Positions 1,107 to 18,319 of a stretch of DNA of 20,000 nucleotides are shown one piece after another. Below the pieces are notes generated by a model, which was not told where the DNA came from, did no database searches, and saw only the letters and a program-made list of their open reading frames with translations. Within the stretch, counting starts at the first letter, position 1; every line of letters begins with the position of its first letter. This DNA is from an uncultured virus (IMG/VR IMGVR_UViG_3300012920_000027). Taxonomy: Duplodnaviria; Heunggongvirae; Uroviricota; Caudoviricetes. The stretch is from IMG/VR virus record IMGVR_UViG_3300012920_000027; one strand, 5' to 3'. The position numbers were made by a program, and so were the translations under genes.

Positions 1107-1195
1107 GAGAGGTGCTCTCCACCACCGATTCATGGTGGGAGTTCAAACCGCATTCCAAATTTGGTCCAGGGCGGCATCTGGAGAGCGAGCGGTTT

Positions 1196-1570
1196 TCAGA
1201 CCAAGCCGGCTTCTTGCCAGTATTCCCTGATCTTTGCGATTGTTTCCTCGGTGTCCTCCGGGATTGGGAGGTCGAGGACGATTTGCTTCACATGGTCCGG
1301 ACGACGGAGCACGATGTCTTCCCAAAACGGGCTTTCGATCAGTACCTCCTTGCTTCCGGTTTGGTGATAGTCGGGGGCCATGCTACGGATTCCCTCTTCG
1401 GGATGGACGAACCAGGCTTGGATGAAGTAGCCGTACATTGGGCTCTCTGCTCCAAGCAATCCGCCGGTATCAAACCCGTAGCTCAAGGTCCATTCTCCTG
1501 TTACTTCCATGTCGTCGATTGAGCTGTGTGCTGTGCGATCTTCATGGGTGATTCCTTTGAATCGTGACAT
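1196..1570 (-). CDS. Hypothetical protein, 124 aa
   Basis: Motif start; tiles with neighbours. Confidence 0.85.
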   Translation of the reverse strand: MSRFKGITHEDRTAHSSIDDMEVTGEWTLSYGFDTGGLLGAESPMYGYFIQAWFVHPEEGIRSMAPDYHQTGSKEVLIESPFWEDIVLRRPDHVKQIVLDLPIPEDTEETIAKIREYWQEAGLV

Positions 1571-1578
1571 GAGCGGTG

Positions 1579-1827
1579 CTATAGGCGGTATCCTTCCTTG
1601 TCGTGAAATGCATGGAATTCGTATCCAGCTTCGATTTTTTCAACGATTGTGAAAATATCGGTGACTTCAAGGAGCAAGTAGCAATACTTCTTTTGGCGGT
1701 CGGACCACAATTCGGATGGTCCGTTTCGTTCAGAGTAGATCAATCCTATCGTTCCTGTGCCTTCCGGCCATTTTCCTTTCGGAGGATAGGCCCAAGCTCG
1801 ATTCCCGAACTCGAAATCACTTACCAT
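1579..1827 (-). CDS. Hypothetical protein, 82 aa
   Basis: Motif start; stop 1 nt from the next motif. Confidence 0.85.
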   Translation of the reverse strand: MVSDFEFGNRAWAYPPKGKWPEGTGTIGLIYSERNGPSELWSDRQKKYCYLLLEVTDIFTIVEKIEAGYEFHAFHDKEGYRL

Positions 1828-1835
1828 GAGCGGTA

Positions 1836-2309
1836 TCAGCCTTCGTAATCGTTCTCAAGGAACGAGGCGACGGCCTTCAACCCTTCTTCGATTGAAGGGG
1901 CTTCATTGACTTCAAACAACACAGCATCGTGCAAAAAAGGACGAATCCGCTGCTTTGCTTCATTGGTCAACTGTAACCACAGGTGGTCCGGAATTATGGG
2001 CTCTCGTTGCGCGTAAAGGCCGATGAAGTATTCCATTCCTGTTGGGGTCGCTGTTGGGTGAATCCTGAGATGACCGAACTTGCTGATTTCTTCCATCAGC
2101 TTGTTGAGGTCGGGCAACAGGTTGTCCCAGACGACCTTCTTGACAGTCATGCGAAGGTCTTGGTCTGCATCGAAGATCCATGTTTCGTCTCCATTGTTTT
2201 CAATTTCGGCGTAGTCTGTGAGGTCTTCATCCTCAACCTTCCATTGGTCGTTGAGGGTATCGAAGAAGTGTCCAGCCATAGCGCCGTCATATCCGTACTT
2301 GATGTGCAT
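1836..2309 (-). CDS. Hypothetical protein, 157 aa (MHIKYGYDG...)
   Basis: Start moved to the motif ATG at 2309. Confidence 0.85.
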   Translation of the reverse strand: MHIKYGYDGAMAGHFFDTLNDQWKVEDEDLTDYAEIENNGDETWIFDADQDLRMTVKKVVWDNLLPDLNKLMEEISKFGHLRIHPTATPTGMEYFIGLYAQREPIIPDHLWLQLTNEAKQRIRPFLHDAVLFEVNEAPSIEEGLKAVASFLENDYEG

Positions 2310-2317
2310 GAGCGGTC

Positions 2318-2542
2318 TCAACCGTACTCCCAATACCAGTTCTCTCCTGCGGAGGCGGCTTCGGCAGCACGGATAACAAGGTCGAATTTGCGTTCAAGTT
2401 CAATGATTCGTTCCTCAAGTTGCTTCAGGAAAGCGAGCCCTTTGTCGCTGTCCCAAGCCTGTTTGAGATCGTGAAGCAATTTCCCTTGCTGAATGAATCG
2501 CCACTCGAGGTCATCGATGGCTTCTTCAGTCGTTTTGTTCAT
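2318..2542 (-). CDS. Coiled-coil hypothetical protein, 74 aa
   Basis: ACCTCTC-ATG start; LKQLEERIIELERKF heptads. Confidence 0.8.
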   Translation of the reverse strand: MNKTTEEAIDDLEWRFIQQGKLLHDLKQAWDSDKGLAFLKQLEERIIELERKFDLVIRAAEAASAGENWYWEYG

Positions 2543-2777
2543 GAGAGGTGTTCCAGACCTGCACCTTGTATCGTCCACCAAGAATGCTGTCCGTGAAGGT
2601 GGATTCTACCGATTGGATGTGGTCTGGGTTCTTCGAGAGCACATTCGTCAGCGTCTGCATGGTCGTACCATGCCTCGTCGTGTTGTTGATGTGCTCAAAA
2701 ATAGCGGTTGTGGAGCTTGCGCCCTCGGAATTGAGGTACTTCACAACCAGGCTCAGGAGTCTCTTTGTTTTGCCCAT
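2526..2777 (-). CDS. DUF3860-like winged-helix putative DNA-binding protein, 83 aa
   Basis: T.xIFEHINxTxRHGTTxQxLxNVLSK...ILGGxYxVxxW matches my recollection of DUF3860 from marine Group II Euryarchaeota; the motif sits 16 nt upstream of this ATG. Confidence 0.75.
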   Translation of the reverse strand: MGKTKRLLSLVVKYLNSEGASSTTAIFEHINNTTRHGTTMQTLTNVLSKNPDHIQSVESTFTDSILGGRYKVQVWNTSHEQND

Positions 2778-2813
2778 AAACGGGCATAAGCGGGAGCGGT
2801 ATTTCAAAACATC

Positions 2814-3713
2814 TCATGACCATTCTGTGATGCGTGAGCCCTTGGGCTTGTTGAATCCAAGATCGTTCTTCAGCCGATCAAAGCCGGCGGTCAGGAACTC
2901 CTTGGACATTTCAATCCCAACGGCGAAACGGTCAGTCAGCATTGCTGCCATGCCCAGGCTGAAAGACCCTGCAAATGGGTCAAGCACCGTGTCTCCAGGG
3001 TTTGTGGAGAACTTCAGGAGCTCGATTAGCAGTTCCACGGGTTTCTCGGTTTGATGCACCTTGTTCTTGCCCATCACTCGGGCGTGCGTAAGGACATCGG
3101 GAATCGAGTTGTTGATCCTGCGTCGCTTCCCCTTGGAGAAGAACAGGATGAGTTCGTGGCGTGGTCGTCCGTTGTAGCCAAGGGAGATGACCTTCTTGTC
3201 CCAGACCCATTGAGAGTTGAATGTGAATCCAGCATTCTCAGCGAGTTTGACCTGGTTGTAGATGTAGTCAATCGTGTCTGCCTTGGCGGCGGGCATGAAA
3301 CAGAAGAAGTGGCCGTTTGGCTTGAGAACGCGGTGCATTTGCGAGAACAGGTCATGGTCGAGGTCTTTGGTCTCGAAGTCCCATCCCTTGTTCAGATTGC
3401 GCTTGCGTGTCGTTCCTCTTTGCATCTGGTCATTGAGCACAGCGTAGGGTGGATCGGTGATGATGGCGTCAAAGGAATCGTCCTCAAAATCAGCCAACAC
3501 CTCCCAGGCATCACCCTCGATGAGGGCACATTGGGAGTCACCAACGGTTGCGATGTAGACACCGCGCCCTACGCGCTTGAAGCATGAATTGATGTTCTCA
3601 TTGAGCCTACCTCTGATGGTGGACTCCTTCTCCCCAGGGAACGCCTCGTAGATCTCCGAGAGGTGATGGGCGTTCTTGAGAAGAAAGTCAATCAATCTGT
3701 CTTTCAAAGTCAT
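2814..3713 (-). CDS. Site-specific DNA methyltransferase (N4-C/N6-A, beta class) with N-terminal HTH-like extension, 299 aa
   Basis: Catalytic IITDPPY precedes H.TEKPVEL and SAM-binding GDTVLDPFAGS, which is beta-class order; no cognate restriction endonuclease recognised nearby. Confidence 0.93.
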   Translation of the reverse strand: MTLKDRLIDFLLKNAHHLSEIYEAFPGEKESTIRGRLNENINSCFKRVGRGVYIATVGDSQCALIEGDAWEVLADFEDDSFDAIITDPPYAVLNDQMQRGTTRKRNLNKGWDFETKDLDHDLFSQMHRVLKPNGHFFCFMPAAKADTIDYIYNQVKLAENAGFTFNSQWVWDKKVISLGYNGRPRHELILFFSKGKRRRINNSIPDVLTHARVMGKNKVHQTEKPVELLIELLKFSTNPGDTVLDPFAGSFSLGMAAMLTDRFAVGIEMSKEFLTAGFDRLKNDLGFNKPKGSRITEWS

Positions 3714-3721
3714 GAGCGGTT

Positions 3722-3994
3722 TCAGTCAAGGAAAAAATCCCTGAGGTCATTCGGATGCCATCGGGGAAAATTGGGACCAGGATTGAGGACTTTTAGGCAT
3801 TCAGCAATGAGTTCCATAACCCTCTTGTCTCTTGATTCAATCTCCTCAGGCGTCAAATCGTTGTCTTCACGACTTCCCAGTCCGAGAGCCCACCACAAGT
3901 AGTACAATCCGTGATCGTCGCTGTTTGCTTCCCAGTAACGAACACAAGTCCAAATTGCGTTATGTTGGCTTGGAGTCAGTTCGATTCGTTTCAT
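3722..3994 (-). CDS. Hypothetical protein, 90 aa
   Basis: Motif ATG at 3994. Confidence 0.8.
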   Translation of the reverse strand: MKRIELTPSQHNAIWTCVRYWEANSDDHGLYYLWWALGLGSREDNDLTPEEIESRDKRVMELIAECLKVLNPGPNFPRWHPNDLRDFFLD

Positions 3995-4001
3995 GAGCGG
4001 T

Positions 4002-4385
4002 TCAATTGATTGGAGCCGGCTTGAACTCACTTGGACGGGGTTCGTTGTGCTTCCCAGAGCGAGCTTGCCGGATCATCCAGCTTTCGGTTCCGACCAGAGC
4101 TGAAACCCAATCACGAGGCGACGGGATGAACCCGAAGTCTTCGAGAAGGTGTTGTTCTCCGATCCATTGAGTTGGGATGGTCTGTCCGTCGCTGTTGGTC
4201 AATGACGGCCCGAATACCTCAACCATCGTGTTGATGCCCTGGCTGTGGTGCCTGAACATTCGATGGCGGAAGTCATGGATGTGCTCCTTCGGGGCGTCAA
4301 ACCATTCGTGGATGGCGAGGTAATCCTCGACTTTTCCTCCGTACTTTTGGACAGAACCCATTGCATGGTGTAGTGCGTGACTCAT
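4002..4385 (-). CDS. DUF6915-like His-rich protein, 127 aa
   Basis: HxxHHA.S.KYGG..EDYLAIHEWFD...DFRHR..RHH..GI...FG...TNSDG..IP...IGEQH..EDFG.IPS..DW signature. Confidence 0.8.
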   Translation of the reverse strand: MSHALHHAMGSVQKYGGKVEDYLAIHEWFDAPKEHIHDFRHRMFRHHSQGINTMVEVFGPSLTNSDGQTIPTQWIGEQHLLEDFGFIPSPRDWVSALVGTESWMIRQARSGKHNEPRPSEFKPAPIN

Positions 4386-4401
4386 GAGCGGTAGTGAGGT
4401 T

Positions 4402-4839
4402 TCACTGGTTCTTCCATTGAGATCCCTCGGGTTGCTTATTGGGCTCCCATGTCCCGTATGCGAGACTGTCGTCTCTGAAGTCAATCCAGAACCCTTGGCC
4501 AGACGCGATGCCATCAAAGATGGAGTCGTCGATCGGCAGGCACTCCACGAAGTCATCGCCACCTACAGCTTCACGACTCTTTTCCCAGCAATCGGGGATT
4601 TCATCAGGATCGTAACCTTGGGCGAAGATGGCTAAGGACCATTTGTTGTCGCGTTCATTCACCAGTTCTTCGGTCGAACCGGACATGATGTAAATGCCTC
4701 TGTCCTTCACAAAGTCAATGTGTGCCGTGTCCTGCATCTCTGGCTGTACGCCATATGGATCAGTCCACTTGGTAGCGTTCTTTGTGTGTTCAAAGATTGT
4801 CCTCAAATTGTCTGAGGGCACAAAAATCAGTTGGGTCAT
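4402..4839 (-). CDS. DUF3085-like protein, 145 aa
   Basis: FVKDRGIYIMS...AIFAQGYDP...W...R..VGGDDFVE signature of DUF3085, a mobile-element family. Confidence 0.8.
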   Translation of the reverse strand: MTQLIFVPSDNLRTIFEHTKNATKWTDPYGVQPEMQDTAHIDFVKDRGIYIMSGSTEELVNERDNKWSLAIFAQGYDPDEIPDCWEKSREAVGGDDFVECLPIDDSIFDGIASGQGFWIDFRDDSLAYGTWEPNKQPEGSQWKNQ

Positions 4840-4846
4840 GAGCGGT

Positions 4847-5137
4847 TCATGCGTCCTCGTAGACGCAATTGTCCATGTTTCCGGACTGATACTCTTCAAT
4901 CAGAAGGAATGTAGCTTCGTACAAAACCGTGTGGTCCATCATTTCCCAACACATTTCATTCATTTGAATGATGTTCTTGGCGAGCTTGTTCGGCAAGCTC
5001 TGTGTGATTTCCAGCAGTTGATTGTACCATTCGGGGTCTCTTTCTTTGATTGGGTCAACTTCGTAGCCGTTGAAGACAAACTGCCTCGGCTTCTGTGTGA
5101 ATTCGTTAGCTGTGTCAAGCCGTTTATTCATGGTCAT
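4847..5137 (-). CDS. Hypothetical protein, 96 aa
   Basis: Motif start; its stop abuts the next motif. Confidence 0.8.
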   Translation of the reverse strand: MTMNKRLDTANEFTQKPRQFVFNGYEVDPIKERDPEWYNQLLEITQSLPNKLAKNIIQMNEMCWEMMDHTVLYEATFLLIEEYQSGNMDNCVYEDA

Positions 5138-5144
5138 GAGCGGT

Positions 5145-5345
5145 TCAGGGCTTTCGTACCTCGGTGACGGCGTGGACGATTTCAATGTCCATCTCCCAGC
5201 CACAGTTGGAGCATGTGTAGGTGTAGGTGGTTGCATCACCACCCTCCTGCTCTAGCGTTCCTTCTGCTTGGCAATGTGGGCATTGTCCGCCCCATAGTTC
5301 TCCGGGGGCGAGAGTGTCTCCTTCTTCGTAAGAATGTCGGGTCAT
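5145..5345 (-). CDS. Zn-ribbon protein, 66 aa
   Basis: CPHC...CSNC; motif start. Confidence 0.8.
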   Translation of the reverse strand: MTRHSYEEGDTLAPGELWGGQCPHCQAEGTLEQEGGDATTYTYTCSNCGWEMDIEIVHAVTEVRKP

Positions 5346-5352
5346 GAGCGGT

Positions 5353-5658
5353 TCATCGGCGTTGGACAAAGTCCATCGTCGATTGCCAATACGAGATGAC
5401 TCCCTCTGGCCTCTCGGCCCATTCCTGTTCGGAAGGTGCTTCAATCATGTCGTAGCGCCAGTCCCAGAAAAGTTCGAGGTCAAAGTCCCCACCAAGTTTG
5501 GGTGGCCGTGCGATCTCCCAAAGGTTCACATCCAAGAACCCAGGGATTGTTTTCTCCCAGTATTCCTTCGGACTTAGCGGTGTATCAACCAAGTAAGGTT
5601 CGTTTTGGTCCCCATCTCCTGTCGTTTCAACGATGTAAAATCGCGATTCGGTGTTCAT
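5353..5658 (-). CDS. Hypothetical protein, 101 aa
   Basis: Motif ATG at 5658 (MNTESRFY...). Confidence 0.8.
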   Translation of the reverse strand: MNTESRFYIVETTGDGDQNEPYLVDTPLSPKEYWEKTIPGFLDVNLWEIARPPKLGGDFDLELFWDWRYDMIEAPSEQEWAERPEGVISYWQSTMDFVQRR

Positions 5659-5666
5659 GAGCGGTC

Positions 5667-6764
5667 TCAGAGACGGCGTCGGACAGCGTCCCTCAGGGCT
5701 GTGAGCCTCTGCAGGTATTCGTCCAAGTCCGAAAGGGTCTCTTCGTAGGCGTCCACGATTTGCTCGATCTTGCGTTCGACCTGCTTCTCCTTCACAAAGA
5801 TGGAAGTCATGGTCTTTGGATCGTTGTCGTGGACAACAGGGACTGGCCCCGAGTAGCCGCCTCGCTTGTTCTTGCGTAGAGGCTTGATGGTTCTCCCATC
5901 CGTGTCTACCATTGGAGGCTCCACAGGGGGTTCCAGTACATGTTCTGTTTCGACCTGGTCCGACCATCGCAAATCAAGCGTTGCGGAGGTGTCGAGTTGT
6001 TCGTCCGTCACAGGTTCGGGCTCTGCCTCTGGCTCAGGCACCACGGGGGGTTCTGGCTCAGGGATTTCAACCGATGGAGATTCCGTTTCAATCACCGGCT
6101 CTGGCTCAAGTTCCACTTCGGGAACAGGCTCAGGCTCTTGCGTTGGTTCTTCCACGGGCTCCGGCTCGGTTTCCGGCTCGGTTTCTGGGTCCTCAGGGTA
6201 GAGGATGTCCAGAGATTTCTTGACGGCTTCAGCCTCTTCAGGGGTAAGGTCCTCTTCGGATTCCTCCCAAAAGTCGTCGGCTTCTTCCTCTTCCTCGTCG
6301 TCTTCTTCCTCAAGGAGGGACGCGAGGTCACCTGGTTCCTCAAGCTCATGTCCGAGTAGCTCTTTCATGGCGAGGATCGGGTCTTGGTCGTTCTGAAGTG
6401 CTTGAGTCGCTATATCCCACAGTTCTTCGCCCCGAAGGCGCTCTTCTGCGGTCAAATCGGCCATGAACTCGGTCACGGTATCGATGAGTTCGGGTTCAGG
6501 ATCAGTGTCCTTTTCCGGAGTCTCTGTTCGGTCGTAATAGCTCACGAGGCGTTCGTTGAGGACGCGGGCCATCTCAATCATTCGAGAAGTCCCTGCGGGG
6601 AATTCGTCAAACGCGCCTTCTGCGACAGCGTCTTCAAGCACAATTTTTGCGAGCTTACGCTTCTTGCGAATGCGTCTCTTCAGTTCTTCATCTGCTTCAG
6701 CCTCCTCTCGCGAATTCATTCGTTCAAGGATGCTGTCGATGTCTTGCATCATTTCTGCTTGCAT
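5667..6764 (-). CDS. Very acidic protein with (EP)n low-complexity linker and C-terminal coiled coil, 365 aa
   Basis: Motif start MQAEMM; EEEDDEEEEE and EPEPEP tracts. Confidence 0.88.
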   Translation of the reverse strand: MQAEMMQDIDSILERMNSREEAEADEELKRRIRKKRKLAKIVLEDAVAEGAFDEFPAGTSRMIEMARVLNERLVSYYDRTETPEKDTDPEPELIDTVTEFMADLTAEERLRGEELWDIATQALQNDQDPILAMKELLGHELEEPGDLASLLEEEDDEEEEEADDFWEESEEDLTPEEAEAVKKSLDILYPEDPETEPETEPEPVEEPTQEPEPVPEVELEPEPVIETESPSVEIPEPEPPVVPEPEAEPEPVTDEQLDTSATLDLRWSDQVETEHVLEPPVEPPMVDTDGRTIKPLRKNKRGGYSGPVPVVHDNDPKTMTSIFVKEKQVERKIEQIVDAYEETLSDLDEYLQRLTALRDAVRRRL

Positions 6765-6771
6765 GAGCGGT

Positions 6772-7044
6772 TCATAGGTCGTAGAGACCTGATTCACGGA
6801 TGAGTTTCGCAGCCTTGCCGGCGTTCGGCCCGATGTAATTCGGGTTCACATCCGTTGATTCAAGTGCAGCGACAATCAATCCGAGGATGATGTTTTGGTG
6901 CTTCAGTAGCGTGAGCTTCTGTCGAGTCAAGGCGATCTCAAGAGGCTTCGTGTCCTCTTGGTTTTCTTGGGATTGCTCGGCTGCTCGATTTGTTTCCTCA
7001 AGCACTTGTTTTGCAGTTTGGATCCATTGTGGTTCAGTTTGCAT
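6772..7044 (-). CDS. Hypothetical protein, 90 aa
   Basis: Motif start MQTEPQW. Confidence 0.8.
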   Translation of the reverse strand: MQTEPQWIQTAKQVLEETNRAAEQSQENQEDTKPLEIALTRQKLTLLKHQNIILGLIVAALESTDVNPNYIGPNAGKAAKLIRESGLYDL

Positions 7045-7051
7045 GAGCGGT

Positions 7052-7525
7052 TCAGTCGACGCGAATCGCGCCGAGTTCGTCGTCCCAGTAGGAACCAATC
7101 ACCTTCACCTCGATGTCCTCGATTTTGAAGTGCTTCAGGTTCTCCTGGACACAATGGACGCCATAGACGGCCATGTTGATGTTGATTGAGACTCTCCAGA
7201 GCTTGTCCCTGTAAAGGGTGATGTACTCGTAGGACTCGTGAATTGAGTCCTTGACTGGAGGAAAGCGATCTGTGCTGGTGAAAGCAAGAACCTGCCCATC
7301 AATCGTGTGATCTTCCCAAGCATTCCATGTGTTGTACAGGACGAGGAACTTCTCCTCATCAATGTCGTCATGGCTCGAGAATGTCCACGGTATGAGTTCA
7401 TCGTGTTCATGTCCTTCCCAGCTCCATTCGCCAGTCTCTGGATCTCCATCGTCACCCAATTCGCCGGTGCGAGGTGGGTAAAATTGGTTCAGCAGTTCAG
7501 TTTCCTTTTCGTTGAATCTGGTCAT
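7052..7525 (-). CDS. Hypothetical acidic protein, 157 aa
   Basis: Motif start; tiles with neighbours. Confidence 0.85.
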   Translation of the reverse strand: MTRFNEKETELLNQFYPPRTGELGDDGDPETGEWSWEGHEHDELIPWTFSSHDDIDEEKFLVLYNTWNAWEDHTIDGQVLAFTSTDRFPPVKDSIHESYEYITLYRDKLWRVSININMAVYGVHCVQENLKHFKIEDIEVKVIGSYWDDELGAIRVD

Positions 7526-7534
7526 GAGCGGTAC

Positions 7535-7771
7535 TCAGAATCCGTTCGTGACTCCATAGTCGTGCAGGATTTCGAATATGGCTTTCAAAGCCATGACTTC
7601 GACGGATTTGATGTTTTTTCGATTCATTCTCTCGAGGGTACCACCACAGGTGATGTCGTACCAAGAAAGAACTCGGAAAAGTTGTCGAGTCAAGGCTGGT
7701 CCATCAGGACCATCCCATGGACCGGTGTTTTCCTCCAACCAATCGTCGAGTTGAGCGTGTAGTGCTTTCAT
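7535..7771 (-). CDS. Hypothetical protein, 78 aa
   Basis: Motif start MKALHAQ. Confidence 0.8.
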   Translation of the reverse strand: MKALHAQLDDWLEENTGPWDGPDGPALTRQLFRVLSWYDITCGGTLERMNRKNIKSVEVMALKAIFEILHDYGVTNGF

Positions 7772-7785
7772 GAGCGGTTCCTGTA

Positions 7786-8235
7786 TCATTCTGCACACCA
7801 GGTTGCGTCGGCAGGCCATTGATGGTAGATGTAATCTTCATTCAATTCGCCGGAATCAAGGAACTTAGGGCCGTGGTACGATGCCGATGCGTGGTACGCA
7901 TGGGGCTCGACATCGACCAGCTCAAGGGTGAGGGCGACGATCAGTTCCTTGAACATTTGATCGGTCATCGTCGTACGCCCACCGATGTGGAGGTTGTCGT
8001 CTTCTCCTTTCCAGTCGTAAATGGTGAATTGCTGACCACGGTAACGGCCCCAGAAGTTCACGGATGACTTGTACCCATCGTAAATCGGGTATTGTCCAGA
8101 TACCGTGATCAATCGGGCCACCGTTTCAGCGAAGGAGTAGGGAAGTGGTTGCCACAACCCTACCCGGCTCGTGCCAGTCATTTCGCCAGCACGCCATTCA
8201 ATTTCGGTGTCCACGCGGATGTTCTTTGTTGTCAT
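7786..8235 (-). CDS. Hypothetical protein, 149 aa, with phage-type FTIYDWK...HIGG signature
   Basis: Motif start; DGYK...W...FTIYDWK...LHIGG resembles a phage hypothetical family (from memory). Confidence 0.8.
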   Translation of the reverse strand: MTTKNIRVDTEIEWRAGEMTGTSRVGLWQPLPYSFAETVARLITVSGQYPIYDGYKSSVNFWGRYRGQQFTIYDWKGEDDNLHIGGRTTMTDQMFKELIVALTLELVDVEPHAYHASASYHGPKFLDSGELNEDYIYHQWPADATWCAE

Positions 8236-8243
8236 GAGCGGTT

Positions 8244-8480: not shown

Positions 8481-8497
8481 GAGCGGTGAGGCTTGTT

Positions 8498-8855: not shown

Positions 8856-8879
8856 GAGCGGTTCACCTGAGTTTCGTGG

Positions 8880-9470: not shown

Positions 9471-9477
9471 GAGCGGT

Positions 9478-9621: not shown

Positions 9622-9629
9622 GAGCGGTT

Positions 9630-10088: not shown

Positions 10089-10113
10089 GAGCGGTGCAAG
10101 ATGGCGTTTGCCG

Positions 10114-10153: not shown

Positions 10154-10166
10154 GGTGTGAGCGGCC

Positions 10167-10355: not shown

Positions 10356-10362
10356 GAGCGGT

Positions 10363-10593: not shown

Positions 10594-10616
10594 GAGCGGT
10601 TGTTGCGCCGAAGCGC

Positions 10617-11470: not shown

Positions 11471-11480
11471 GAGCGGCTGT

Positions 11481-11615
11481 TCAAGCTTCGAAGTACTCCT
11501 CGTAGATGTACTCCTCAGTTTCAATGCGAATTTTCAACAGGTTCACTAGATTAGCAAGTGTCTGCATCCGTCTCTTGACGGGCCATTTTCGCACATCATC
11601 TTTAGTGTAGTCCAT
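11481..11615 (-). CDS. Small hypothetical protein, 44 aa (MDYTKDDVRKW...), not in the ORF track
   Basis: Motif start; TGA 3 nt before the next motif. Confidence 0.7.
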   Translation of the reverse strand: MDYTKDDVRKWPVKRRMQTLANLVNLLKIRIETEEYIYEEYFEA

Positions 11616-11623
11616 GAGCGGTT

Positions 11624-11902
11624 TCAAGGGAAGTCCACATCGTCATTTTCCAGCCCGTAGGCCAGCGCTGCTGACAAGTACGGAGCAAGGAGCTTTGAGC
11701 GTTTTCGTGGCGACAACCCTTTCGGGAGGTACCCTCCATGAATCTTTTTCACCCAGTTGAAAGGGTCGGCCAAGAATGCAGGGTACACAAGGGAAATCCA
11801 TTGTCCCTTTGCAGTACCGAGGAAAGAGAATTGTTCTTGTGTGACTTCTTTTCCATGGATGATCGTTGCGAATTCAAAAATTGTAGGCGGTTTTGCGTAC
11901 AT
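11624..11902 (-). CDS. Hypothetical protein, 92 aa
   Basis: Motif start. Confidence 0.8.
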   Translation of the reverse strand: MYAKPPTIFEFATIIHGKEVTQEQFSFLGTAKGQWISLVYPAFLADPFNWVKKIHGGYLPKGLSPRKRSKLLAPYLSAALAYGLENDDVDFP

Positions 11903-11918
11903 GAGCGGTTTTCAGCCC

Positions 11919-12311
11919 TCAATAAGGGCTGACCATGTACCTCTGCTCGTCGGGTATAAAGAAGTAGACCGTATTCAGGTAGCCTGATTGCAGGTCGTTC
12001 TTCCGTTGCCATTCATCGGCTTCTGCACGCTCTTGGGGCGTGAGGTCGCTTGAGAATGGGTTCTTGCCGTTGTAAGCAGGGCGGTCAAGGGTGACGATCA
12101 TGCGAGAACTGCTGCGGGAAACCTGGAGCTTACGCATGCAGAACCAGGCTTCAAGGAGTTCGTCAGGGCTCGCTTCGAGTTGCGTTGCGAGTTCCATCAG
12201 GAACTTTCGGTTCACACGCTTTGGTCGTAGTCGTACGCTCCAGTAACCTGTGAAAGTTCCCATTTTGTACCCAAAGGCTTCGATGATGTCTTGTTGACGG
12301 TTTTGTGTCAT
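11919..12311 (-). CDS. Hypothetical protein, 130 aa
   Basis: Motif start. Confidence 0.82.
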   Translation of the reverse strand: MTQNRQQDIIEAFGYKMGTFTGYWSVRLRPKRVNRKFLMELATQLEASPDELLEAWFCMRKLQVSRSSSRMIVTLDRPAYNGKNPFSSDLTPQERAEADEWQRKNDLQSGYLNTVYFFIPDEQRYMVSPY

Positions 12312-12320
12312 GAGCGGTGT

Positions 12321-12548
12321 TCAGCGGATGATCGGCACCAGTTTGAACTTGCAGCCGATCATCCACTCGTACATCAATCCCCAAACGGGGTCAGTGCGAC
12401 GGACAACCCACCATCGGGGTCCGAGAGGTTCCACCCCCTGTGAATCAAGCCACTTCATAGCGGCTTTTCGGTTCTTGAATTTGGGGGATTTGAAGCGCAC
12501 TTTCTCATTGCCTCTGTAGAGGTGTAAGGTGTAACGATGTTCAGTCAT
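12321..12548 (-). CDS. Basic hypothetical protein, 75 aa
   Basis: Motif start MTEHRY. Confidence 0.78.
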   Translation of the reverse strand: MTEHRYTLHLYRGNEKVRFKSPKFKNRKAAMKWLDSQGVEPLGPRWWVVRRTDPVWGLMYEWMIGCKFKLVPIIR

Positions 12549-12564
12549 GAGCGGTGTGGGGATT

Positions 12565-12963
12565 TCACTCCCCGAACAGGTTGAACCTGTCGCTACGGAC
12601 TCGTTTATCCTCGAAGGCCACGCCACGGCCGGATGTTTCCGGCGTTGGGACGGTGGAGACTACGGGAAAACCATACGCCTGGGCGGCGATGGCCGAGGTG
12701 ATCACCAACACTCCCTCTGGGAGGGAGGCAAGGAAGGCTAGGCCCTCCTCGAGAGGCTCCCAGCCAGTCATCTGGAAAGGAGCCCCCCGGGGGTGCTCCT
12801 TGTCGATTGGACTGGCATTGAGCCCCTTGCGGCCACCAGTTTCCAGCGGAGCTGGCTTCACCACGGTTTCATCATCAAAGACGAACGGGTGAGGGCTGGT
12901 GTTGATAACACGGGTTCCATTGCTAAGGGTCACGATTGATTCGGTAAAATCTTGGTTGTTCAT
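12565..12963 (-). CDS. Hypothetical protein, 132 aa (INxxPH motif)
   Basis: Motif start; VINTSPHP resembles phage 'NLTPH' hypotheticals (from memory). Confidence 0.82.
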   Translation of the reverse strand: MNNQDFTESIVTLSNGTRVINTSPHPFVFDDETVVKPAPLETGGRKGLNASPIDKEHPRGAPFQMTGWEPLEEGLAFLASLPEGVLVITSAIAAQAYGFPVVSTVPTPETSGRGVAFEDKRVRSDRFNLFGE

Positions 12964-12981
12964 GAGCGGTAGGTTCGAGGG

Positions 12982-13104
12982 TTAATACCCCCAGTTGCAC
13001 GCGCAGTCTTCCCAAACAGGGCCAAAGAAAGGACAATAGGTCACAATCCCGGTCCCGTCGCAAAAGGGGCATTCTGCTTGGATTTGCTCCAGTTTTGTCG
13101 TCAT
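12982..13104 (-). CDS. DnaJ-type Zn-finger mini-protein, 40 aa
   Basis: CPFCDGTG...CAC; motif start. Confidence 0.72.
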   Translation of the reverse strand: MTTKLEQIQAECPFCDGTGIVTYCPFFGPVWEDCACNWGY

Positions 13105-13117
13105 GAGCGGTTCTCGA

Positions 13118-13384
13118 TCAACAAATCGAGTTCCATGCGTCTGCGATGTCCATGGCTTCTTCGTTGGACACCGCGATTGTCTTGCCGTTTCTCGCCAAGC
13201 CAATGATTGCACCTCCAAGTGACCAGCGCTTGGCTTGATCTTGAGCGAACTTGAGGTACTTCTTGCGCTTTTGACGGTTGTTTGATTCGATCATCCGAGC
13301 GGCGTGCTCGAATGTTTCTGTGGTTCGAAGGTAGTTGATGGATCCGGTCTTGTGATTGACCTTCCATGGTAGCTTTCGAGACAT
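13118..13384 (-). CDS. Basic hypothetical protein, 88 aa
   Basis: Motif start. Confidence 0.8.
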   Translation of the reverse strand: MSRKLPWKVNHKTGSINYLRTTETFEHAARMIESNNRQKRKKYLKFAQDQAKRWSLGGAIIGLARNGKTIAVSNEEAMDIADAWNSIC

Positions 13385-13402
13385 GAGCGGTTGTTGCTTT
13401 CA

Positions 13403-14287
13403 TCACACACCGAAGGTGTCGAGAAGTTCCTTCCAGTCTGCCTTGTTGGTTTCGGCGAAGAGTCTGGTTCGGATTGCTCGGTCCAAAGACCGGAATGTGA
13501 CGGGGTCCTCTTCCGAAGCCACTTCCTTCAGGTGAGCCAACACTTCTTGTTTCATTGGCATCGACACCCTTGGGTGGATGTTCGGTAGGACCTTTTGCAT
13601 GCGTTCCAGAACTTCAGTCCCAGTTAGAACGACGGGGACAAAGAAGCTACGGTCGATTAGGGGTTGGGGCATGTCCTTTTCCTCCTTGTTGGTGATGAAC
13701 ACCACCTGTCCTTTGAACGCGAACTTCCGTGGCAGTCCATGTTGGTCTGCCCAACCGGAGTTCCAGCTGATTGTTCGTTCGGAGTAGGAGTCAAGTGCAG
13801 CCTTGCAGAGTTCCATCATGGTCTCGTTTCCCCAGATGTCCACATCGTCAAGGACAAGCACGCCGCCATCTTTGCGTTGATGCATGGCGGTGTAGAGTCC
13901 TGTGGGGGCCATGTGACCTGCGACCCAAGTGTAGCCCGTGGGGCCTTCCTTGTCTTCGACTAGGCCTGCTGCCTTGAGGATCTGCTTGACCGTGTAGGTC
14001 TTTCCAAGTCCGCCCGTTCCACAAATGATCATGGAGGGGACGAATTTCTTGACGACCATTTTGATGATCTGTTCCATCAGTTCGAATCGTTTGTTCACAG
14101 GGAGTTTGGCCATCCGCTTGGTCACGACCTCGTTTCTGGCTTTGCTCTTCTGTTGCTTCTTTCGCCGCTTTGCTGCTTCCACAGCGTCAATCACCTCCTT
14201 GTCGGGGGTGGGTTGAGGGCGATAGGTTGATTCTGGCATTGGTTGTGAATGATTTCCTCCATCGGAGGTTTTCAGTTCAGGTTGCAT
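13403..14287 (-). CDS. AAA+ ATPase of phage type, 294 aa
   Basis: Walker A GTGGLGKT, Walker B VLVLDDVD, sensor-1 VVFITN, arginine finger LIDRS. Confidence 0.9.
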   Translation of the reverse strand: MQPELKTSDGGNHSQPMPESTYRPQPTPDKEVIDAVEAAKRRKKQQKSKARNEVVTKRMAKLPVNKRFELMEQIIKMVVKKFVPSMIICGTGGLGKTYTVKQILKAAGLVEDKEGPTGYTWVAGHMAPTGLYTAMHQRKDGGVLVLDDVDIWGNETMMELCKAALDSYSERTISWNSGWADQHGLPRKFAFKGQVVFITNKEEKDMPQPLIDRSFFVPVVLTGTEVLERMQKVLPNIHPRVSMPMKQEVLAHLKEVASEEDPVTFRSLDRAIRTRLFAETNKADWKELLDTFGV

Positions 14288-14312
14288 GAGAGGCAAGATG
14301 GGGTAGAGCGAA

Positions 14313-14350
14313 CGAAAGCCCCACACCGCAGATGCGGTATGGGGCTTTCG
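14313..14350. terminator. Long near-perfect hairpin upstream of the AAA+ gene (terminator-like or processing stem)
   Basis: CGAAAGCCCCA-CACCGCA-GA-TGCGGTA-TGGGGCTTTCG. Confidence 0.5.
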
Positions 14351-14370
14351 AACACGCTTGCGTGAGAGGT

Positions 14371-14548
14371 GAGTGCAATTCAGGGTCGCTACCAGGCCTG
14401 CTACCTAGGCTGCACTAAGCCATGCCTGTGACCCTCTGCCGTGCCCGGGACACCTTTCGGGTCGCCGGATAAACAGGGGGTTGCCGTTCCAGTAGGCTCA
14501 CAATCCCTACCCCGTTCGGAGGGGTCTGAGGGAAGATGATTGGGCATT
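14371..14548 (-). ncRNA. Candidate structured RNA, copy A of a tandem pair
   Basis: Shares ATGCC/GGCAT closing stem, TGGAAC-loop hairpin and 3' GGTA(A)GCAGG...GCGA.CC block with copy B; compensatory changes between copies. Confidence 0.6.
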
Positions 14549-14578
14549 CTACCAATGGGGGACTTGTGGGTTCTCCAT
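14549..14578 (-). CDS. 9-codon ORF MENPQVPHW*
   Basis: ACCTCTC-ATG start; same length and TGG-TAG-AATGCC end as the ORF at 14791. Confidence 0.45.
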   Translation of the reverse strand: MENPQVPHW

Positions 14579-14589
14579 GAGAGGTGAGT

Positions 14590-14790
14590 GGTTTTTTCGG
14601 TTCGCCATCCTACCTGCTTACCGAAGGGACCACCATCCCATGCCTTGAGCCCCGTTTTCTAAGGGGCCGCCCGTTCCATTTGGGCGCGCATAGAGCTCGA
14701 GTGGTGGCTCGGCCCATGCGGATTACCGCAATAGCTCCGGGGGCTATCGCGGATAATCACTGCTTGGGCTGCTCAAAACGCTGTGGCATT
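14590..14790 (-). ncRNA. Candidate structured RNA, copy B of a tandem pair
   Basis: As copy A; additional stem CCGCGATAGC/GCTATTGCGG with a G-U pair. Confidence 0.6.
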
Positions 14791-14820
14791 CTACCAGCGG
14801 ATGATGTAGTTGATCTCCAT
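14791..14820 (-). CDS. 9-codon ORF MEINYIIRW*
   Basis: Exact ACCGCTC-ATG start; TGG-TAG-AATGCC end. Confidence 0.45.
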   Translation of the reverse strand: MEINYIIRW

Positions 14821-14840
14821 GAGCGGTTTGACCTCAGCGA

Positions 14841-14901
14841 GGCCACCCCGGGGCGCCGTAGCGCCCCGGGGGGCGGTGTTCAGGTCAGTGACCTGAAGGC
14901 C
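14841..14901 (-). repeat. Palindrome plus C(UACG)G hairpin element, copy 1
   Basis: CAGGTCA-N-TGACCTG followed by CCCGGGGCGC-TACG-GCGCCCCGGG, just 3' of a CDS. Confidence 0.85.
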
Positions 14902-14915
14902 AGAGCCGGTTAAGC

Positions 14916-15827
14916 TCAGACATCCACGACCACGAGGGTCGGGAAGCCGGCGTCGAGTTGCAGGTCGACGAAGTACTGCCGGATGCGGGCGTTGCAGTCA
15001 AGGGCACGCCTCCACGAGTTCCCCTGGCCAGGGAACTGTGCGACCGGGAATCCACGCACGCCCGAATCGACGAGCGTTTGGTGTGCGTCGTTGTCGGCCG
15101 TGTTGGGCGTGGTTCCTCGTCCGGTGAGGAGGAAACCGGGGTTGATGCCGTTTCCATCGCTGCGTCGCAGGGACATCTTCCGGTTGTCGCCGTTGATGTC
15201 TGCGATGATCTGGATGAATCCGTGCTGGGCCCGGCTGCGCTTGTTGTCCTTGCGCTTCTCCTGTCCCGCCTTGGTGTACGGGATGCTGCGGAGGCGAAGG
15301 GCTGCGTTGACCAGCAGGCAGTAGCCGTTGACCAGGACCTTGTCGCGGGAACTCGAGAGTTGCCACTTGTTCAGTCCGTTGTAGTCGGGAGTAGGCCAAT
15401 GAGTGAGGCCTTTGCTGTCCCAACCGTCCTCAGGTGCCGGCAACATCTCAACGAAGATGGCGTGATCCATGTCGGCCATTTCGGTGGTGTAGCGGATTTT
15501 GAGCATTCCTGCCTCCTTGAGGGGCGTGAGGGCGCTGACGATTGCATCAATGTCGGCCTGAGTTTTGATGGCGTCGTTGATGGTTTTTCCGTCTGCGTCT
15601 GTGTGCTTCACGAGGAAGAGAGGATTGTCGTCCTTGCTCATTTCCATGTAGGCGAAGCGGGTGCCACTGGCAGTCTTGAACTGCGGGTGGGGCTTGCCTT
15701 TCGTGAAGACCGTCTCGACGGTGACGCCGTTCAGGTGCTCCTCTGCCGTGTGGATCGCTTGCGCGAAGTCCTCCACGGTGTAGGTCAGGTTGTTGGTCTG
15801 GTTTTCGGGGTATGCTGCGGTTTGCAT
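14916..15827 (-). CDS. Hypothetical protein, 303 aa, strongly codon-biased and possibly highly expressed
   Basis: ACCACTC-ATG start (MQTAAYP); C/G-ending codons; stop-free antisense frame. Confidence 0.88.
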   Translation of the reverse strand: MQTAAYPENQTNNLTYTVEDFAQAIHTAEEHLNGVTVETVFTKGKPHPQFKTASGTRFAYMEMSKDDNPLFLVKHTDADGKTINDAIKTQADIDAIVSALTPLKEAGMLKIRYTTEMADMDHAIFVEMLPAPEDGWDSKGLTHWPTPDYNGLNKWQLSSSRDKVLVNGYCLLVNAALRLRSIPYTKAGQEKRKDNKRSRAQHGFIQIIADINGDNRKMSLRRSDGNGINPGFLLTGRGTTPNTADNDAHQTLVDSGVRGFPVAQFPGQGNSWRRALDCNARIRQYFVDLQLDAGFPTLVVVDV

Positions 15828-15834
15828 GAGTGGT

Positions 15835-16116
15835 GTGTGTGGGCGGTCCATTTGCTATCCGGCGTTCTGTCAAACCTTGCGCGGTTTGTCCCCTCGCCCT
15901 GCCGGGGTCATAGGGGCTTCCAGCAATTCCCCCGGCTTGATGTGAGTACCCCCTCTCGAGGGCAGAGCACACCGTTCCAGGCAGAAAAGCGTTGTTTGGG
16001 CTCTTTCTCGGGTTGCAATCCCACCACTTTCGTGGTGAAGGAGTTCAATCGGCCGAGTTTGTCCTGCTCAGAGTCCTTCGAGTGGAGAAGGAGGCAGGCT
16101 ATCAGTCCCTTACGGG
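15835..16116 (-). ncRNA. Candidate ~280-nt structured RNA between two motif copies
   Basis: Begins after ACCGCTC-ACA; CCC-GTAA-GGG, CACCAC-GAAA-GTGGTG, GCCGGGG/CCCCGGC stem, TGGAAC loop. Confidence 0.5.
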
Positions 16117-16144
16117 TGTGAGCGGTTCATCGGACAAGTCCGAA

Positions 16145-16447
16145 TCAGCGGTATGCGCCCATTGCCAGTCCAGGCAGGCTCGAGGCCTCGCCCTTCTGCG
16201 ACTTGATACGCAGGCTCGACAGGATGCTGTGAAGCACCTTGTTACCATCGAAGCTGATGTTGCCATCGGCTTGGATCTCCGACTCGAAGTCGAAGCAGCC
16301 AGTGTCTGCGAGGTCCTTCTCGCAGAGCGAGCAAAGGAATTCGGGAGCACGGGCAATGGTCAGAACCTTGCGATGTCCCACCCCCTGGAACTCGGGGGCG
16401 TTCAAATCGGCTTGGCAAATGGCGCAGGTACAAATTTTGGTTTGCAT
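16145..16447 (-). CDS. Zn-finger protein, 100 aa
   Basis: CTCAIC...CSLC; GCCGCTC-ATG start. Confidence 0.8.
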   Translation of the reverse strand: MQTKICTCAICQADLNAPEFQGVGHRKVLTIARAPEFLCSLCEKDLADTGCFDFESEIQADGNISFDGNKVLHSILSSLRIKSQKGEASSLPGLAMGAYR

Positions 16448-16460
16448 GAGCGGCTTACAT

Positions 16461-16526
16461 GACCACCCTGGGCCGCCGTAGCGACCCAGGGGGTGTTGTA
16501 CAGGTCAATGACCTGGGACGAAGGTC
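16461..16526 (-). repeat. Palindrome plus C(UACG)G hairpin element, copy 2
   Basis: GACC...CAGGTCATTGACCTG-TACAACACC-CCCTGGGTCGC-TACG-GCGGCCCAGGG-TGGTC. Confidence 0.85.
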
Positions 16527-16530
16527 GAGC

Positions 16531-16890
16531 TCAAAGCTCGATGGCGCCTTCAATGGCCGAAGCCCTTGATTCCCTCTTGATTGCGCTGCGGCGGTGCCGC
16601 ACTTGGCGTTCGTTGGGGAAGGCCTCTGGGCAGTACTTGTCTACCCAGTCCTTCATCATCAGAACCGATTTCAGATGTCCAAGGCTGGTGCCAGAGACCA
16701 CTTCGTTCCCGTCCCAGTTGTCGAAGAAGCGGTGAAGCGCTTGTTCGGTGCGACTGGAGATGCGGGGTGGTGCTCGGCCACGGACCTTGTGGATCCAGCC
16801 CTCCCACGAAAGCACCCAAAGGGGCACCTTCGTATCGTCGCTGGTCAAAATCTGGTTGTCGGTTGGCATTGTTTTACGAGTGTAGAACAT
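16531..16890 (-). CDS. Basic hypothetical protein, 119 aa
   Basis: ACCTCTC-ATG start. Confidence 0.8.
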   Translation of the reverse strand: MFYTRKTMPTDNQILTSDDTKVPLWVLSWEGWIHKVRGRAPPRISSRTEQALHRFFDNWDGNEVVSGTSLGHLKSVLMMKDWVDKYCPEAFPNERQVRHRRSAIKRESRASAIEGAIEL

Positions 16891-16963
16891 GAGAGGTCTC
16901 GTCTTTCCGAAGTGTCATCCAGTTTTTGCGGTCCTGGAAGCGACCGCCGGCAACCGGTGAGAG

Positions 16964-17239
16964 TCAGAGCTCCACCATCGCCTCAAGGTTCAGCTTAGGC
17001 GCCGCCTTCTTGCGGTTGCCTTTGCTGTTCTTCTTGCGGCGGTTGGATTTGGAGGACTTCTTCGTCTGCTGTGCCTTGTGCGCTGCGATCATCTCGCTGC
17101 GAATGGCGTTCACAAGCTTCGGGTCAAAGTCCCCAGAGAAGGTGATGTTTCCGACGGTGGTGGTGTTATCCACCTCCTGTCGGGGCTTGCTCGTCTTCTT
17201 CTTGCGGTTCACGGTGACGGTGCGGGTAAAGCGGGTCAT
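16964..17239 (-). CDS. Lys/Arg-rich protein, 91 aa, putative nucleic-acid-binding
   Basis: GCCTCTC-ATG start MTRFTR; NRKKK and KKSSKSNRRKKNSKGNRKK tracts. Confidence 0.8.
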   Translation of the reverse strand: MTRFTRTVTVNRKKKTSKPRQEVDNTTTVGNITFSGDFDPKLVNAIRSEMIAAHKAQQTKKSSKSNRRKKNSKGNRKKAAPKLNLEAMVEL

Positions 17240-17416
17240 GAGAGGCACCACCCCTGCCGGGGGTTGGCCCCCCCCAGAGCAGGGGGGGCCAGTTTGACTC
17301 CGCACGGTAGAACGAGACGGAGCCGGAGGCTGCGGCGGGGTGGCGATGCGTCGGTGCGCGGGGGCCCGTTGGATGAACTGCAATCAAGCTAAGAGTGGGC
17401 TAGACTCCAGGCTGCT

Positions 17417-17887
17417 TCACGAAAGGTCCTCGGTGTAGTCCCAGCCATCGTAGTGGCTGAGGTCGTAGGAGGCGTCGTCGTCGTCGGCGTCGTCAAGGAC
17501 ATCTTCGACCTCGTCCGGGTTGCCGGTGGGACCGGCGGGGATTCCGTCGAGGGAAGTGGTACCGATGCGGTCACGGCTGTGGAGGTTTTCCTCGGCAGAC
17601 TCGAGAGACCACCCGAAGGCGGTGGCGAGTGCCATGAGGTGTTCCGGTGCGTGCGACCATCGGCCGTCGTAGACGATGTTTGCCATGTTGAGCGCTTCCA
17701 AGAGAGTGCGTTCGACTTCCATTCGGGACATGTCTCGCATGTCTGCGTAGATGTCGAAGGCAACTTCGAGTGCGTTGTCGAGGCTGGAGATGTCAGCGAA
17801 GATGCTGAGGAAGGAGGTGATCATCACCTCCAAAGCTCCAAGTGTTCGTTCGGCGGTCAGGCTGATTGGGTTGGTATGCTGTTGCAT
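17417..17887 (-). CDS. Acidic hypothetical protein, 156 aa
   Basis: ACCACTC-ATG start; D/E-rich tail. Confidence 0.85.
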   Translation of the reverse strand: MQQHTNPISLTAERTLGALEVMITSFLSIFADISSLDNALEVAFDIYADMRDMSRMEVERTLLEALNMANIVYDGRWSHAPEHLMALATAFGWSLESAEENLHSRDRIGTTSLDGIPAGPTGNPDEVEDVLDDADDDDASYDLSHYDGWDYTEDLS

Positions 17888-17921
17888 GAGTGGTTGGCGA
17901 GGGTGTTCCTTCCCTCATACC

Positions 17922-18319
17922 TAAGGCCCACAGGGGCCTTAGGGCGTGTTCGTGAGTGGTTGTGTGCGGTGACCGACTTCCCAGAGAAGTCGGCTCCTTG
18001 ATCGGCATTTTGTTGTCCTGCTCAGGGGGATCTATCCCCTTTGCGACATCCGGATGCTCTGGCATCCTCCTGTCCTACGGACTGGACTTAGCAACATCGA
18101 AGAGCTTGCTAGGCTCAACGAATCGGCTTTGTCCACAAAATGAGTCTCATAAGGGTGAGTTGTGACCTTGGCAGGACTCCTCGCTCAAACGGCGGGCGTC
18201 GATGCCTCGTTAAGGCCACAATACTCGGTAAATTACGAGTGGTGGGTGGAGAAAGCACCCTTTCGGGTCTTCCTCACTTCTAAGGTCCACAGGGGCCTTA
18301 GGGCGTGTTCGTGTGTGGT
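17922..18319. repeat. Two ~39-bp direct repeats with an internal hairpin (17922-17960 and 18281-18319)
   Basis: TAAGG(C/T)CCACAGGGGCCTTAGGGCGTGTTCGTG(A/T)GTGGT. Confidence 0.85.

What the first reader, a model, noticed from the sequence alone, without database searches (positions are those of the whole stretch)
1107..17960. ATG-less copies of the motif head non-coding hairpin units
Seen: the motif core occurs without ATG at about 1187 (ACCGCTC-GCT), 10159 (GCCGCTC-ACA), 14361 (ACCTCTC-ACG), 16117 (ACCGCTC-ACA) and 17951 (ACCACTC-ACG). At 1187, 10159 and 16117 it sits shortly after an upstream stop. Each is followed by 55-280 nt of hairpin-containing non-coding sequence and then a normal motif-ATG. 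Two of these units end in the same CCATCTTGC before the next start (+ strand GCAAGATGG at 10096 and 14293). Inference: the motif delimits units whether or not they code, which favours a recombination or RNA-processing boundary over a pure ribosome-binding signal.
Basis: partly seen in the sequence, partly recalled or inferred. Interest (0 to 1): 0.75.

Follow-up and report, generated by a model that had tools for sequence, protein, structure and literature searches.

The report
Seven-letter signal frames shuffled viral cassettes
In a virus-like element of marine archaea, one seven-letter signal heads about 130 small genes and also several structured non-coding RNAs; relatives swap these units exactly at the signal, which most likely also marks where each RNA begins.

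Summary
Observation confirmed. The window is the head of a 48-kb array in an archaeal (probably Poseidoniales) virus-like element, where ACC[G/A/T]CTC abuts about 130 units. All five ATG-less copies exist. Four are conserved without ATG in relatives (one of them in degenerate form in one relative), so they are not decayed genes. They head a conserved tRNA-like RNA (1114-1186), two hairpin+CCATCTTGC units of the kind repeated at the array's end (probable terminators), and structured spacers. Shown: units move as blocks. Strains from four other studies gain or lose motif-to-motif segments with 10-11 nt shared, gene order is scrambled among relatives, and the tRNA-like unit has different neighbours. 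Inferred: the motif is kept because it fixes an RNA 5' end at the next purine, giving leaderless mRNAs. Best reading is a TATA-less start-site promoter (0.5), plausibly read by host polymerase carrying the element's own Rpo1C and TFB homologues. Obligatory RNA cutting is weakened by conserved reading frames running across the motif, and pure ribosome binding by no 16S match. No RNA data exist here. The scan has not reported this on other DNA.

The parts
75..19859 (-). Head 20 kb of a 48-kb array (G000:C1:27,830-75,652) of about 130 units, each starting directly after RCC[G/A/T]CTC; 44 motif-ATG genes in the window
1187..1193 (-). ATG-less motif ACCGCTC, 2 nt after a stop
1114..1186 (-). T unit: 73-nt three-way-junction RNA with an 8-bp terminal helix starting exactly at +1, stacked on a 5-bp helix (tRNA-like shape); conserved in 5 of 17 related sources, with different neighbours
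   Evidence: no Rfam match
1107..1113 (-). Variant motif ACCTCTC-ATG that travels with the T unit, not with the downstream gene
10159..10165 (-). ATG-less motif GCCGCTC, 1 nt after a stop
10096..10158 (-). H unit: 11-bp hairpin (10122-10145), pyrimidine tail and CCATCTTGC (10096-10104); terminator-like; marks the border between the collinear front and the shuffled part of the array
14364..14370 (-). ATG-less motif ACCTCTC
14295..14363 (-). H-type unit: 17-bp hairpin (14313-14350) and CCATCTTGC (14293-14301, overlapping the next motif), upstream of the conserved ATPase gene
16120..16126 (-). ATG-less motif ACCGCTC, 18 nt after a stop; a sequence breakpoint versus L020
15835..16119 (-). 285-nt non-coding unit; first ~100 nt replaced in relatives, frame-breaking indels in strains, folding not better than shuffles
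17954..17960 (-). ATG-less motif ACCACTC
17895..17953 (-). 59-nt two-hairpin unit, related to repeats at 18270-18336 and 19799-19836; least well supported of the five
19037..19859 (-). First unit of the array: ATG-less motif (19853-19859) plus 816 nt of structured non-coding sequence, about 77% identical in G001
2794..2800 (-). ATG-less motif followed by C, 16 nt before the DUF3860 gene; an exception to the purine +1 rule
1568..1824 (-). Whole motif-to-motif cassette absent in contigs of 4 of 4 runs laid (10 nt shared at the joint)
5342..5654 (-). Motif-to-motif cassette absent in 3 of 4 runs (11 nt shared)
9468..9618 (-). Motif-to-motif cassette skipped or replaced in 1 of 4 runs (11 nt shared)
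12960..13100 (-). Motif-to-motif cassette skipped or replaced in 3 of 4 runs (11 nt shared)
19860..20000 (.). Start of a tandem repeat (121-bp period, about 4 copies in G001) between the array head and a divergent TFB-like gene; each copy has a weak TATA-like word

Best explanation
CC[G/A]CTC|A(Y) is a minimal, TATA-less start-site signal. RNA begins at the purine right after it, so coding units give leaderless mRNAs starting at AUG, and ATG-less copies start non-coding units (a tRNA-like RNA, a real tRNA in a relative, terminator-like hairpins, structured leaders). It is probably read by host RNA polymerase altered by the element's own Rpo1C and/or TFB homologue. Because every unit is bracketed by the same 8-11 bp, the signal also serves as the crossover joint, and units are gained, lost and reordered one at a time while keeping their expression signal. 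Shown: unit boundaries, block exchange at the motif, conservation of non-coding units, absence of SD and TATA in the array, presence of Rpo1C and TFB homologues. Inferred: that +1 is an RNA 5' end, that it is made by initiation, which protein reads it, and that H units terminate.
For: ATG lies at offset 0 in 432 of 462 ACCGCTC copies, with no information from -50 to -11 (17 related sources, not independent). A host-type TATA is found at -27..-31 for 0 of 130, 1 of 119 and 1 of 91 unit starts, against 1.4-2% at random. The host starts many genes 29-30 nt after TT[C/G]A[A/T], so leaderless mRNA is probably normal there, and non-array viral genes use that promoter or an SD. Post-stop ATG-less copies have a purine at +1 in 24 of 27, AC in 18. 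The T helix starts at +1 in 5 of 5. An intron-containing tRNA in G001 has a 4-nt leader behind the motif and no TATA-like word seen at -29. CC[G/A]CTC is depleted inside array genes on both strands (12 vs 39, 20 vs 72), like TATA words, and less or not in non-array genes. 20 of 495 upstream frames run across the next +1, 16 over the canonical core, which is harmless for a promoter. Order is nearly free behind the H unit (rho 0.25, n=49) but fixed in front (rho 0.97, n=13). Rpo1C homologue: PF04998 E 6e-22, best hits archaeal Rpo1C. TFB homologue in G001: PF00382 E 8e-5, just under the cut-off, plus Atlas fold hits. Shuffling.
Against: No transcript data. A 7-9 nt promoter without TATA is not established for archaea, and about 130 abutting promoters would interfere. 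Small variable genes are usually expressed before viral transcription factors exist. Each upstream 121-bp repeat has a TATA-like word in register (G000 score 8.9 vs host median 9.1; G001 only 5.5-6.1), which could drive one long transcript. The motif is kept before C at 2794-2800 and in one relative, where it cannot be a good start. The gene after the strongest hairpin has the weak variant GCCTCTC, whose core is not depleted. Two-strand depletion is also expected under the RNA and recombination models. Position is still correlated in other pairs (rho 0.55 and 0.31).
Confidence: 0.5

Rival explanations
1. RNA cleavage: a long transcript from promoters in the 121-bp repeats is cut at ACCGCUC^A by a sequence-specific RNase, releasing leaderless mRNAs and non-coding RNAs (T7/RNase III-like logic, recalled).
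For: Explains zero spacing, helices starting at +1, a motif after the last gene, sense-strand avoidance of ACC[GAT]CTCA (1 vs 5.8), slightly higher motif accessibility (0.51 vs 0.48, p about 0.004) and more variant motifs where frames overlap (4 of 20 vs 20 of 475, p 0.012).
Against: 16 of 20 overlapping frames cross a canonical core, including one gene family whose frame crosses the next start in 4 genomes; a cut would remove its stop. No RNase other than RNase H was found among 219 viral proteins scanned with Pfam (most have no family). It needs a 48-kb transcript passing two strong hairpin units.
Confidence: 0.15
2. Translation signal: the motif couples termination to re-initiation or positions the ribosome; ATG-less copies are by-products of shuffling.
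For: The upstream stop ends within -1..+3 nt of the motif in 318 of 483 junctions. The first 40 nt of genes are weakly structured.
Against: No GAGCGGT in 4 of 4 Poseidoniales 16S loci examined, and the anti-SD is standard; only GAGTGGT at an internal site in 3 of 4. C-to-T changes that wobble pairing would allow are nearly absent at -5, -3 and -1 (1 of 511). Depletion on the antisense strand and perfect copies before non-coding units in several genomes are unexplained.
Confidence: 0.15
3. Recombination site only: an integron-like system in which a recombinase recognises the motif, with no role in expression.
For: Joints share exactly 10-11 nt. Homology blocks start at a motif in 17 of 28 and end at one in 22 of 32 cases (4-5% expected). 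G001 has a serine recombinase, RusA-like resolvase and ligase domain.
Against: The site has no dyad or hairpin. There is no tyrosine integrase in complete G001, and the serine recombinase lies about 14 kb from the array. It does not explain how SD-less, TATA-less genes are expressed, nor the strict zero spacing.
Confidence: 0.12
4. The ATG-less units are decayed genes or chance matches.
For: ATG-less hits are only about twice chance. ACG and ACA are one or two changes from ATG. The 285-nt unit folds no better than shuffles, and the 17960 copy lacks an orthologue in G001.
Against: No ATG in any relative holding a unit. The T unit is 89% identical in G001, where most genes are about 65-80%. Compensatory changes in 1 of 20, 2 of 14 and 2 of 11 pairs of T, H and array-end units (few sequences).
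Confidence: 0.03

Closest known systems
T4-type PeSL regulatory cassettes (PMC2839356; abstract and section 13 read)
   Same: A repeated expression signal in front of small unknown genes doubles as the joint for modular shuffling; stem-loop terminators are part of the system.
   Different: PeSLs are long composites (sigma70 -35/-10, stem-loop, SD), about 50 per genome. Here the shared part is 7 nt plus A, heads nearly every unit, has no SD, and hairpins are separate cassettes.
Halovirus HF2 intergenic repeats (PMC8707807, PMC7230728; passages read)
   Same: Archaeal virus, repeats before unknown genes, shown there to be promoters.
   Different: IRs are 29-58 bp, AT-rich, with BRE/TATA; few copies. 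Here there is no TATA, about 130 copies, and gene-by-gene shuffling.
Mycobacteriophage cluster K Start-Associated Sequences (PMC3203893; passages read)
   Same: Asymmetric, one-orientation repeat at starts of non-structural genes, function unknown.
   Different: SAS is 13 bp, contains an SD core, lies 3-7 bp from the start, 11-19 copies. Here spacing is zero, there is no SD, and non-coding units are included.
Magrovirus 'group D' of MG-II archaea (PMC5434244; passages read)
   Same: Thermosome, resolvase and RNA polymerase A homologues; no morphogenetic block recognised.
   Different: Group D was defined by a PolB gene; none in G001 or G000. No motif array is mentioned in the passages seen.
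Integron cassette arrays (recalled)
   Same: Single-ORF units, mostly unknown function, exchanged as blocks; some non-coding cassettes.
   Different: No attC hairpin, no tyrosine integrase.
Initiator-only viral promoters (poxvirus late TAAAT, baculovirus TAAG, phiKZ TATG; recalled)
   Same: Short motif at the start site, often wedged between a stop and ATG, read by virus-encoded polymerase parts.
   Different: Those viruses encode full polymerases; here only Rpo1C and TFB homologues were found.

Membership tests
PeSL | sigma70-like -35/-10 promoter plus SD in the repeat | tested here: not met
   No information upstream of -10 and no SD
PeSL | Indels and replacements bounded by the repeat | tested here: met
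PeSL | Excised mini-circles | not testable with these tools
   Only contigs, no raw reads, were available
HF2-type intergenic repeat | TATA/BRE core in the repeat | tested here: not met
   0 of 130, 1 of 119, 1 of 91
HF2-type intergenic repeat | Promoter activity | not testable with these tools
   No RNA data
Integron | Tyrosine integrase | tested here: not met
   PF00589: 0 of 2 records, one of them complete
Integron | attC imperfect inverted repeat at each cassette end | tested here: not met
   Most 3' ends are stop plus motif with 0-3 nt between
Shine-Dalgarno / SAS | Complementarity to the 16S 3' end, spaced from the start codon | tested here: not met
tRNA gene (T unit) | Cloverleaf with anticodon arm, matched by ARAGORN or Rfam | tested here: not met
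   three-way junction only
Magrovirus group D | PolB gene | tested here: not met
Magrovirus group D | Thermosome, resolvase, RNA polymerase A homologue | tested here: met
   (thermosome seen in G001 only; G000 is 59% complete)
Intrinsic terminator (H units) | RNA 3' ends at the hairpin tail | not testable with these tools
   Position only: repeated 2-3 times between last array gene and next TATA promoter

The most novel reading that the evidence does not exclude
An archaeal virus swaps its own Rpo1C and TFB into the host polymerase to read a TATA-independent 8-bp start signal. That signal is also the crossover site, making a self-expressing, integrase-free cassette array of about 130 freely reorderable units that includes regulatory parts (terminators, a tRNA mimic, tRNAs) as mobile cassettes.
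Probability: 0.35. Interest if true: 0.9.

Novelty: new variant of a known kind. Interest (0 to 1): 0.72.

Why it matters
It shows a very small signal organising about 40% of a viral genome into exchangeable, probably self-expressing parts, a natural case of gene-by-gene modular evolution with exact joints. If the motif is a promoter, it is a TATA-independent archaeal promoter class tied to a virus-encoded polymerase subunit, which I did not find in print. It makes testable how a virus of uncultured marine archaea redirects host transcription.

Tried and rejected
No RNA holder listed, so expression could not be examined. The motif before tRNA-Lys in G001 (59,214, + strand) first looked like support, but it overlaps a host-type TATA promoter 29 nt from the tRNA, so it was dropped. 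The TT[C/A]AAACGG promoter of non-array genes first looked virus-specific but matches the host pattern. The motif is not a host start signal: 53 matches vs 42 control in 5 genomes, and about 2 of 20 inspected sit at plausible long-ORF starts. Rfam gave nothing in the window and only tRNAs and one weak chance hit in two other 20-kb loci. Viral-contig scans found one relative only. A thermosome scan of genomes found nothing. No DxDGD polymerase motif was found in a large protein. Variant tracking was noisy (follows upstream 24 of 118, downstream 8 of 85, pairs not independent). CCATCTTGC after a hairpin was not found outside the array and its end. CCGCTC equals a restriction site (BsrBI, recalled), but avoidance is array-limited, unlike ACGT, so I rejected that reading. 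The first depletion test was inflated by frames running into the next motif and was redone.
Full report
Setting. The window is the last 20 kb of a 75,793-bp virus record, G000 (59% complete). From C1:27,830 to 75,652 nearly every unit on the - strand starts directly after RCC[G/A/T]CTC: 117 with ATG and 15 intergenic without. Genes outside this array use SD sequences or a TATA-type promoter. G000 encodes an 841-aa Rpo1C homologue that keeps the trigger-loop motif. Most named cellular matches of that length class are Poseidoniales, so the host assignment is an inference. A complete 127,570-bp relative, G001, adds a TFB homologue next to the array head, a thermosome, a serine recombinase and a packaging-type ATPase, but no PolB or tyrosine integrase.

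Relatives used. I tested 33 candidate loci by tblastn and kept 14, plus a 44-kb stretch of Ga0181393_1000007, G001 and G000, giving 17 sources. They are related, so pooled counts are not independent. L020 and L035 were dropped from the depletion tests as too close to G000.

Observation. All five ATG-less copies, their unit lengths (73, 63, 69, 285, 59 nt) and both CCATCTTGC ends are as described. Four units fold better than shuffles; the 285-nt unit does not. ATG-less hits as a class are only about twice chance, so the case rests on position and conservation.

Not decayed genes. The 1186-1114 unit occurs in 5 of 17 sources, always starting GC at +1, with the same three-way fold and one compensatory pair of 20. 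It is 89% identical in G001, where most genes are about 65-80%. The 10158-10096 unit occurs in G001 and L020 with 2 compensatory pairs of 14. The 16119 and 14363 units are also ATG-less in relatives; 17953 has no orthologue at that place in G001.

Units move as blocks. Contigs from four other studies skip 1567-1825 (4 of 4 runs, 10 nt shared), 5341-5655 (3 of 4, 11 nt), 12959-13101 (3 of 4) and 9467-9619 (1 of 4). These are 4 of the 15 joints listed (24 more were not shown); the others are replacements or small indels, some ending at a motif. Homology blocks between G000 and G001 start at a motif in 17 of 28 and end at one in 22 of 32 cases, against 4-5% expected. Order among shared units is kept in 21 of 62, 20 of 54 and 9 of 51 consecutive pairs, while non-array genes are collinear. 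The T unit has different neighbours on both sides in G000 and G001. L020 is nearly identical up to ACCGCTCAC at 16126 and diverges there. G001 has an intron-containing tRNA where G000 has a coding unit behind the same upstream gene.

H units. Hairpin plus CCA[T/A][C/T]TTGC occurs at 10096, at 14293, and two to three times at the array's far end, just before a TATA-type promoter. I infer terminators or 3'-end signals. Order is conserved in front of the 10165 unit (rho 0.97) and largely free behind it (rho 0.25 with G001; 0.55 and 0.31 in the other pairs).

Why the motif is kept. Shuffling uses the motif but need not maintain it. ATG sits at offset 0 in 432 of 462 copies, the sequence is exact in 429 of 511, and nothing is conserved upstream. 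Four Poseidoniales 16S loci lack GAGCGGT. In 400 kb of one host genome TT.A[AT] peaks 29-30 nt before ATG (28 and 12 genes vs about 4 per position), so leaderless mRNA is probably common; array starts lack that box. After a stop, ATG-less copies continue with a purine in 24 of 27. CC[G/A]CTC is avoided in array genes on both strands (ranks 38 and 40 of 2052 six-mers). These points favour +1 as an RNA 5' end. Between initiation and cutting, the 16 canonical motifs crossed by upstream frames favour initiation, as do the Rpo1C and TFB genes. Against it: TATA-like words in the upstream repeats, the copy before C at 2794-2800, a weak variant after the strongest hairpin, a small accessibility signal, and more variants at overlaps. 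Odds: start-site promoter 0.5, cleavage 0.15, translation signal 0.15, recombination only 0.12, decay or other 0.08.

Literature. Nine searches ran and none listed this motif or array. Read: PMC2839356 (abstract, section 13), PMC8707807, PMC7230728, PMC5434244 and PMC3203893 (passages), PMC5069720 (passages, section 10; no promoter consensus there). No supplements were read; those of PMC5434244 may describe group D contigs that belong to this family. The library lacks most subscription papers. Poxvirus, baculovirus, phiKZ, T7 and integron comparisons are recalled.

Verdict. The feature is real and its role as a cassette joint is shown. It works like a PeSL reduced to 8-11 bp but fails membership of PeSL, HF2-type repeats, SAS and integrons. 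The expression role is inferred and awaits RNA end mapping.

Noticed in passing
G000:C1:24951-27476 (L002:9951-12476): 841-aa Rpo1C homologue with intact trigger loop and a long divergent middle; only 5 close homologues, all probably from this virus family; has a host-type TATA promoter.
   Followed up: partly
L015:18114-19205 (G001): TFB homologue transcribed away from the array head, across about four 121-bp tandem repeats that may be promoters or an origin.
   Followed up: partly
window 19037-19852: 816-nt highly structured non-coding first unit (z -5 and -8.7 for its first 300 nt), more conserved than most genes; no Rfam match.
   Followed up: partly
whole G000 and G001 coding sequence: ACGT is almost absent (18 vs 415 expected in array genes, 0 vs 217 elsewhere), suggesting avoidance of a host restriction site.
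   Followed up: no
window 14376-14827: Two 9-codon ORFs ending W-stop, each followed by structured sequence; G001 has one copy, and one strain skips or replaces 14376-14914.
   Followed up: partly
G000:C1:51660 and 50780; G001:32526 and 32263; L042, L064, L065: Further ATG-less units of 175-425 nt sharing short helices (GATCAAGGTCTAG-like; GTCCTATCCTTGGAC) that look like unknown ncRNA families.
   Followed up: no
L015:10410-10540 (G001): tRNA with a 55-nt intron inserted as a cassette in the array.
   Followed up: partly
G001 whole record: 127.6-kb record with end repeats, no PolB, terminase-portal or capsid recognised; may be a non-tailed virus or a large mobile element, resembling magrovirus group D.
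   Followed up: partly
window 14841-14896, 16461-16516, 18330-18385: Three copies of a 56-nt hairpin repeat directly after stop codons in the front of the array.
   Followed up: no
window 14916-15827 and 13403-14287: Conserved front-of-array genes (303 aa, no family; 294-aa ATPase, phrog_1250) keep their place in relatives and are candidates for the factor that reads or recombines the motif.
   Followed up: partly
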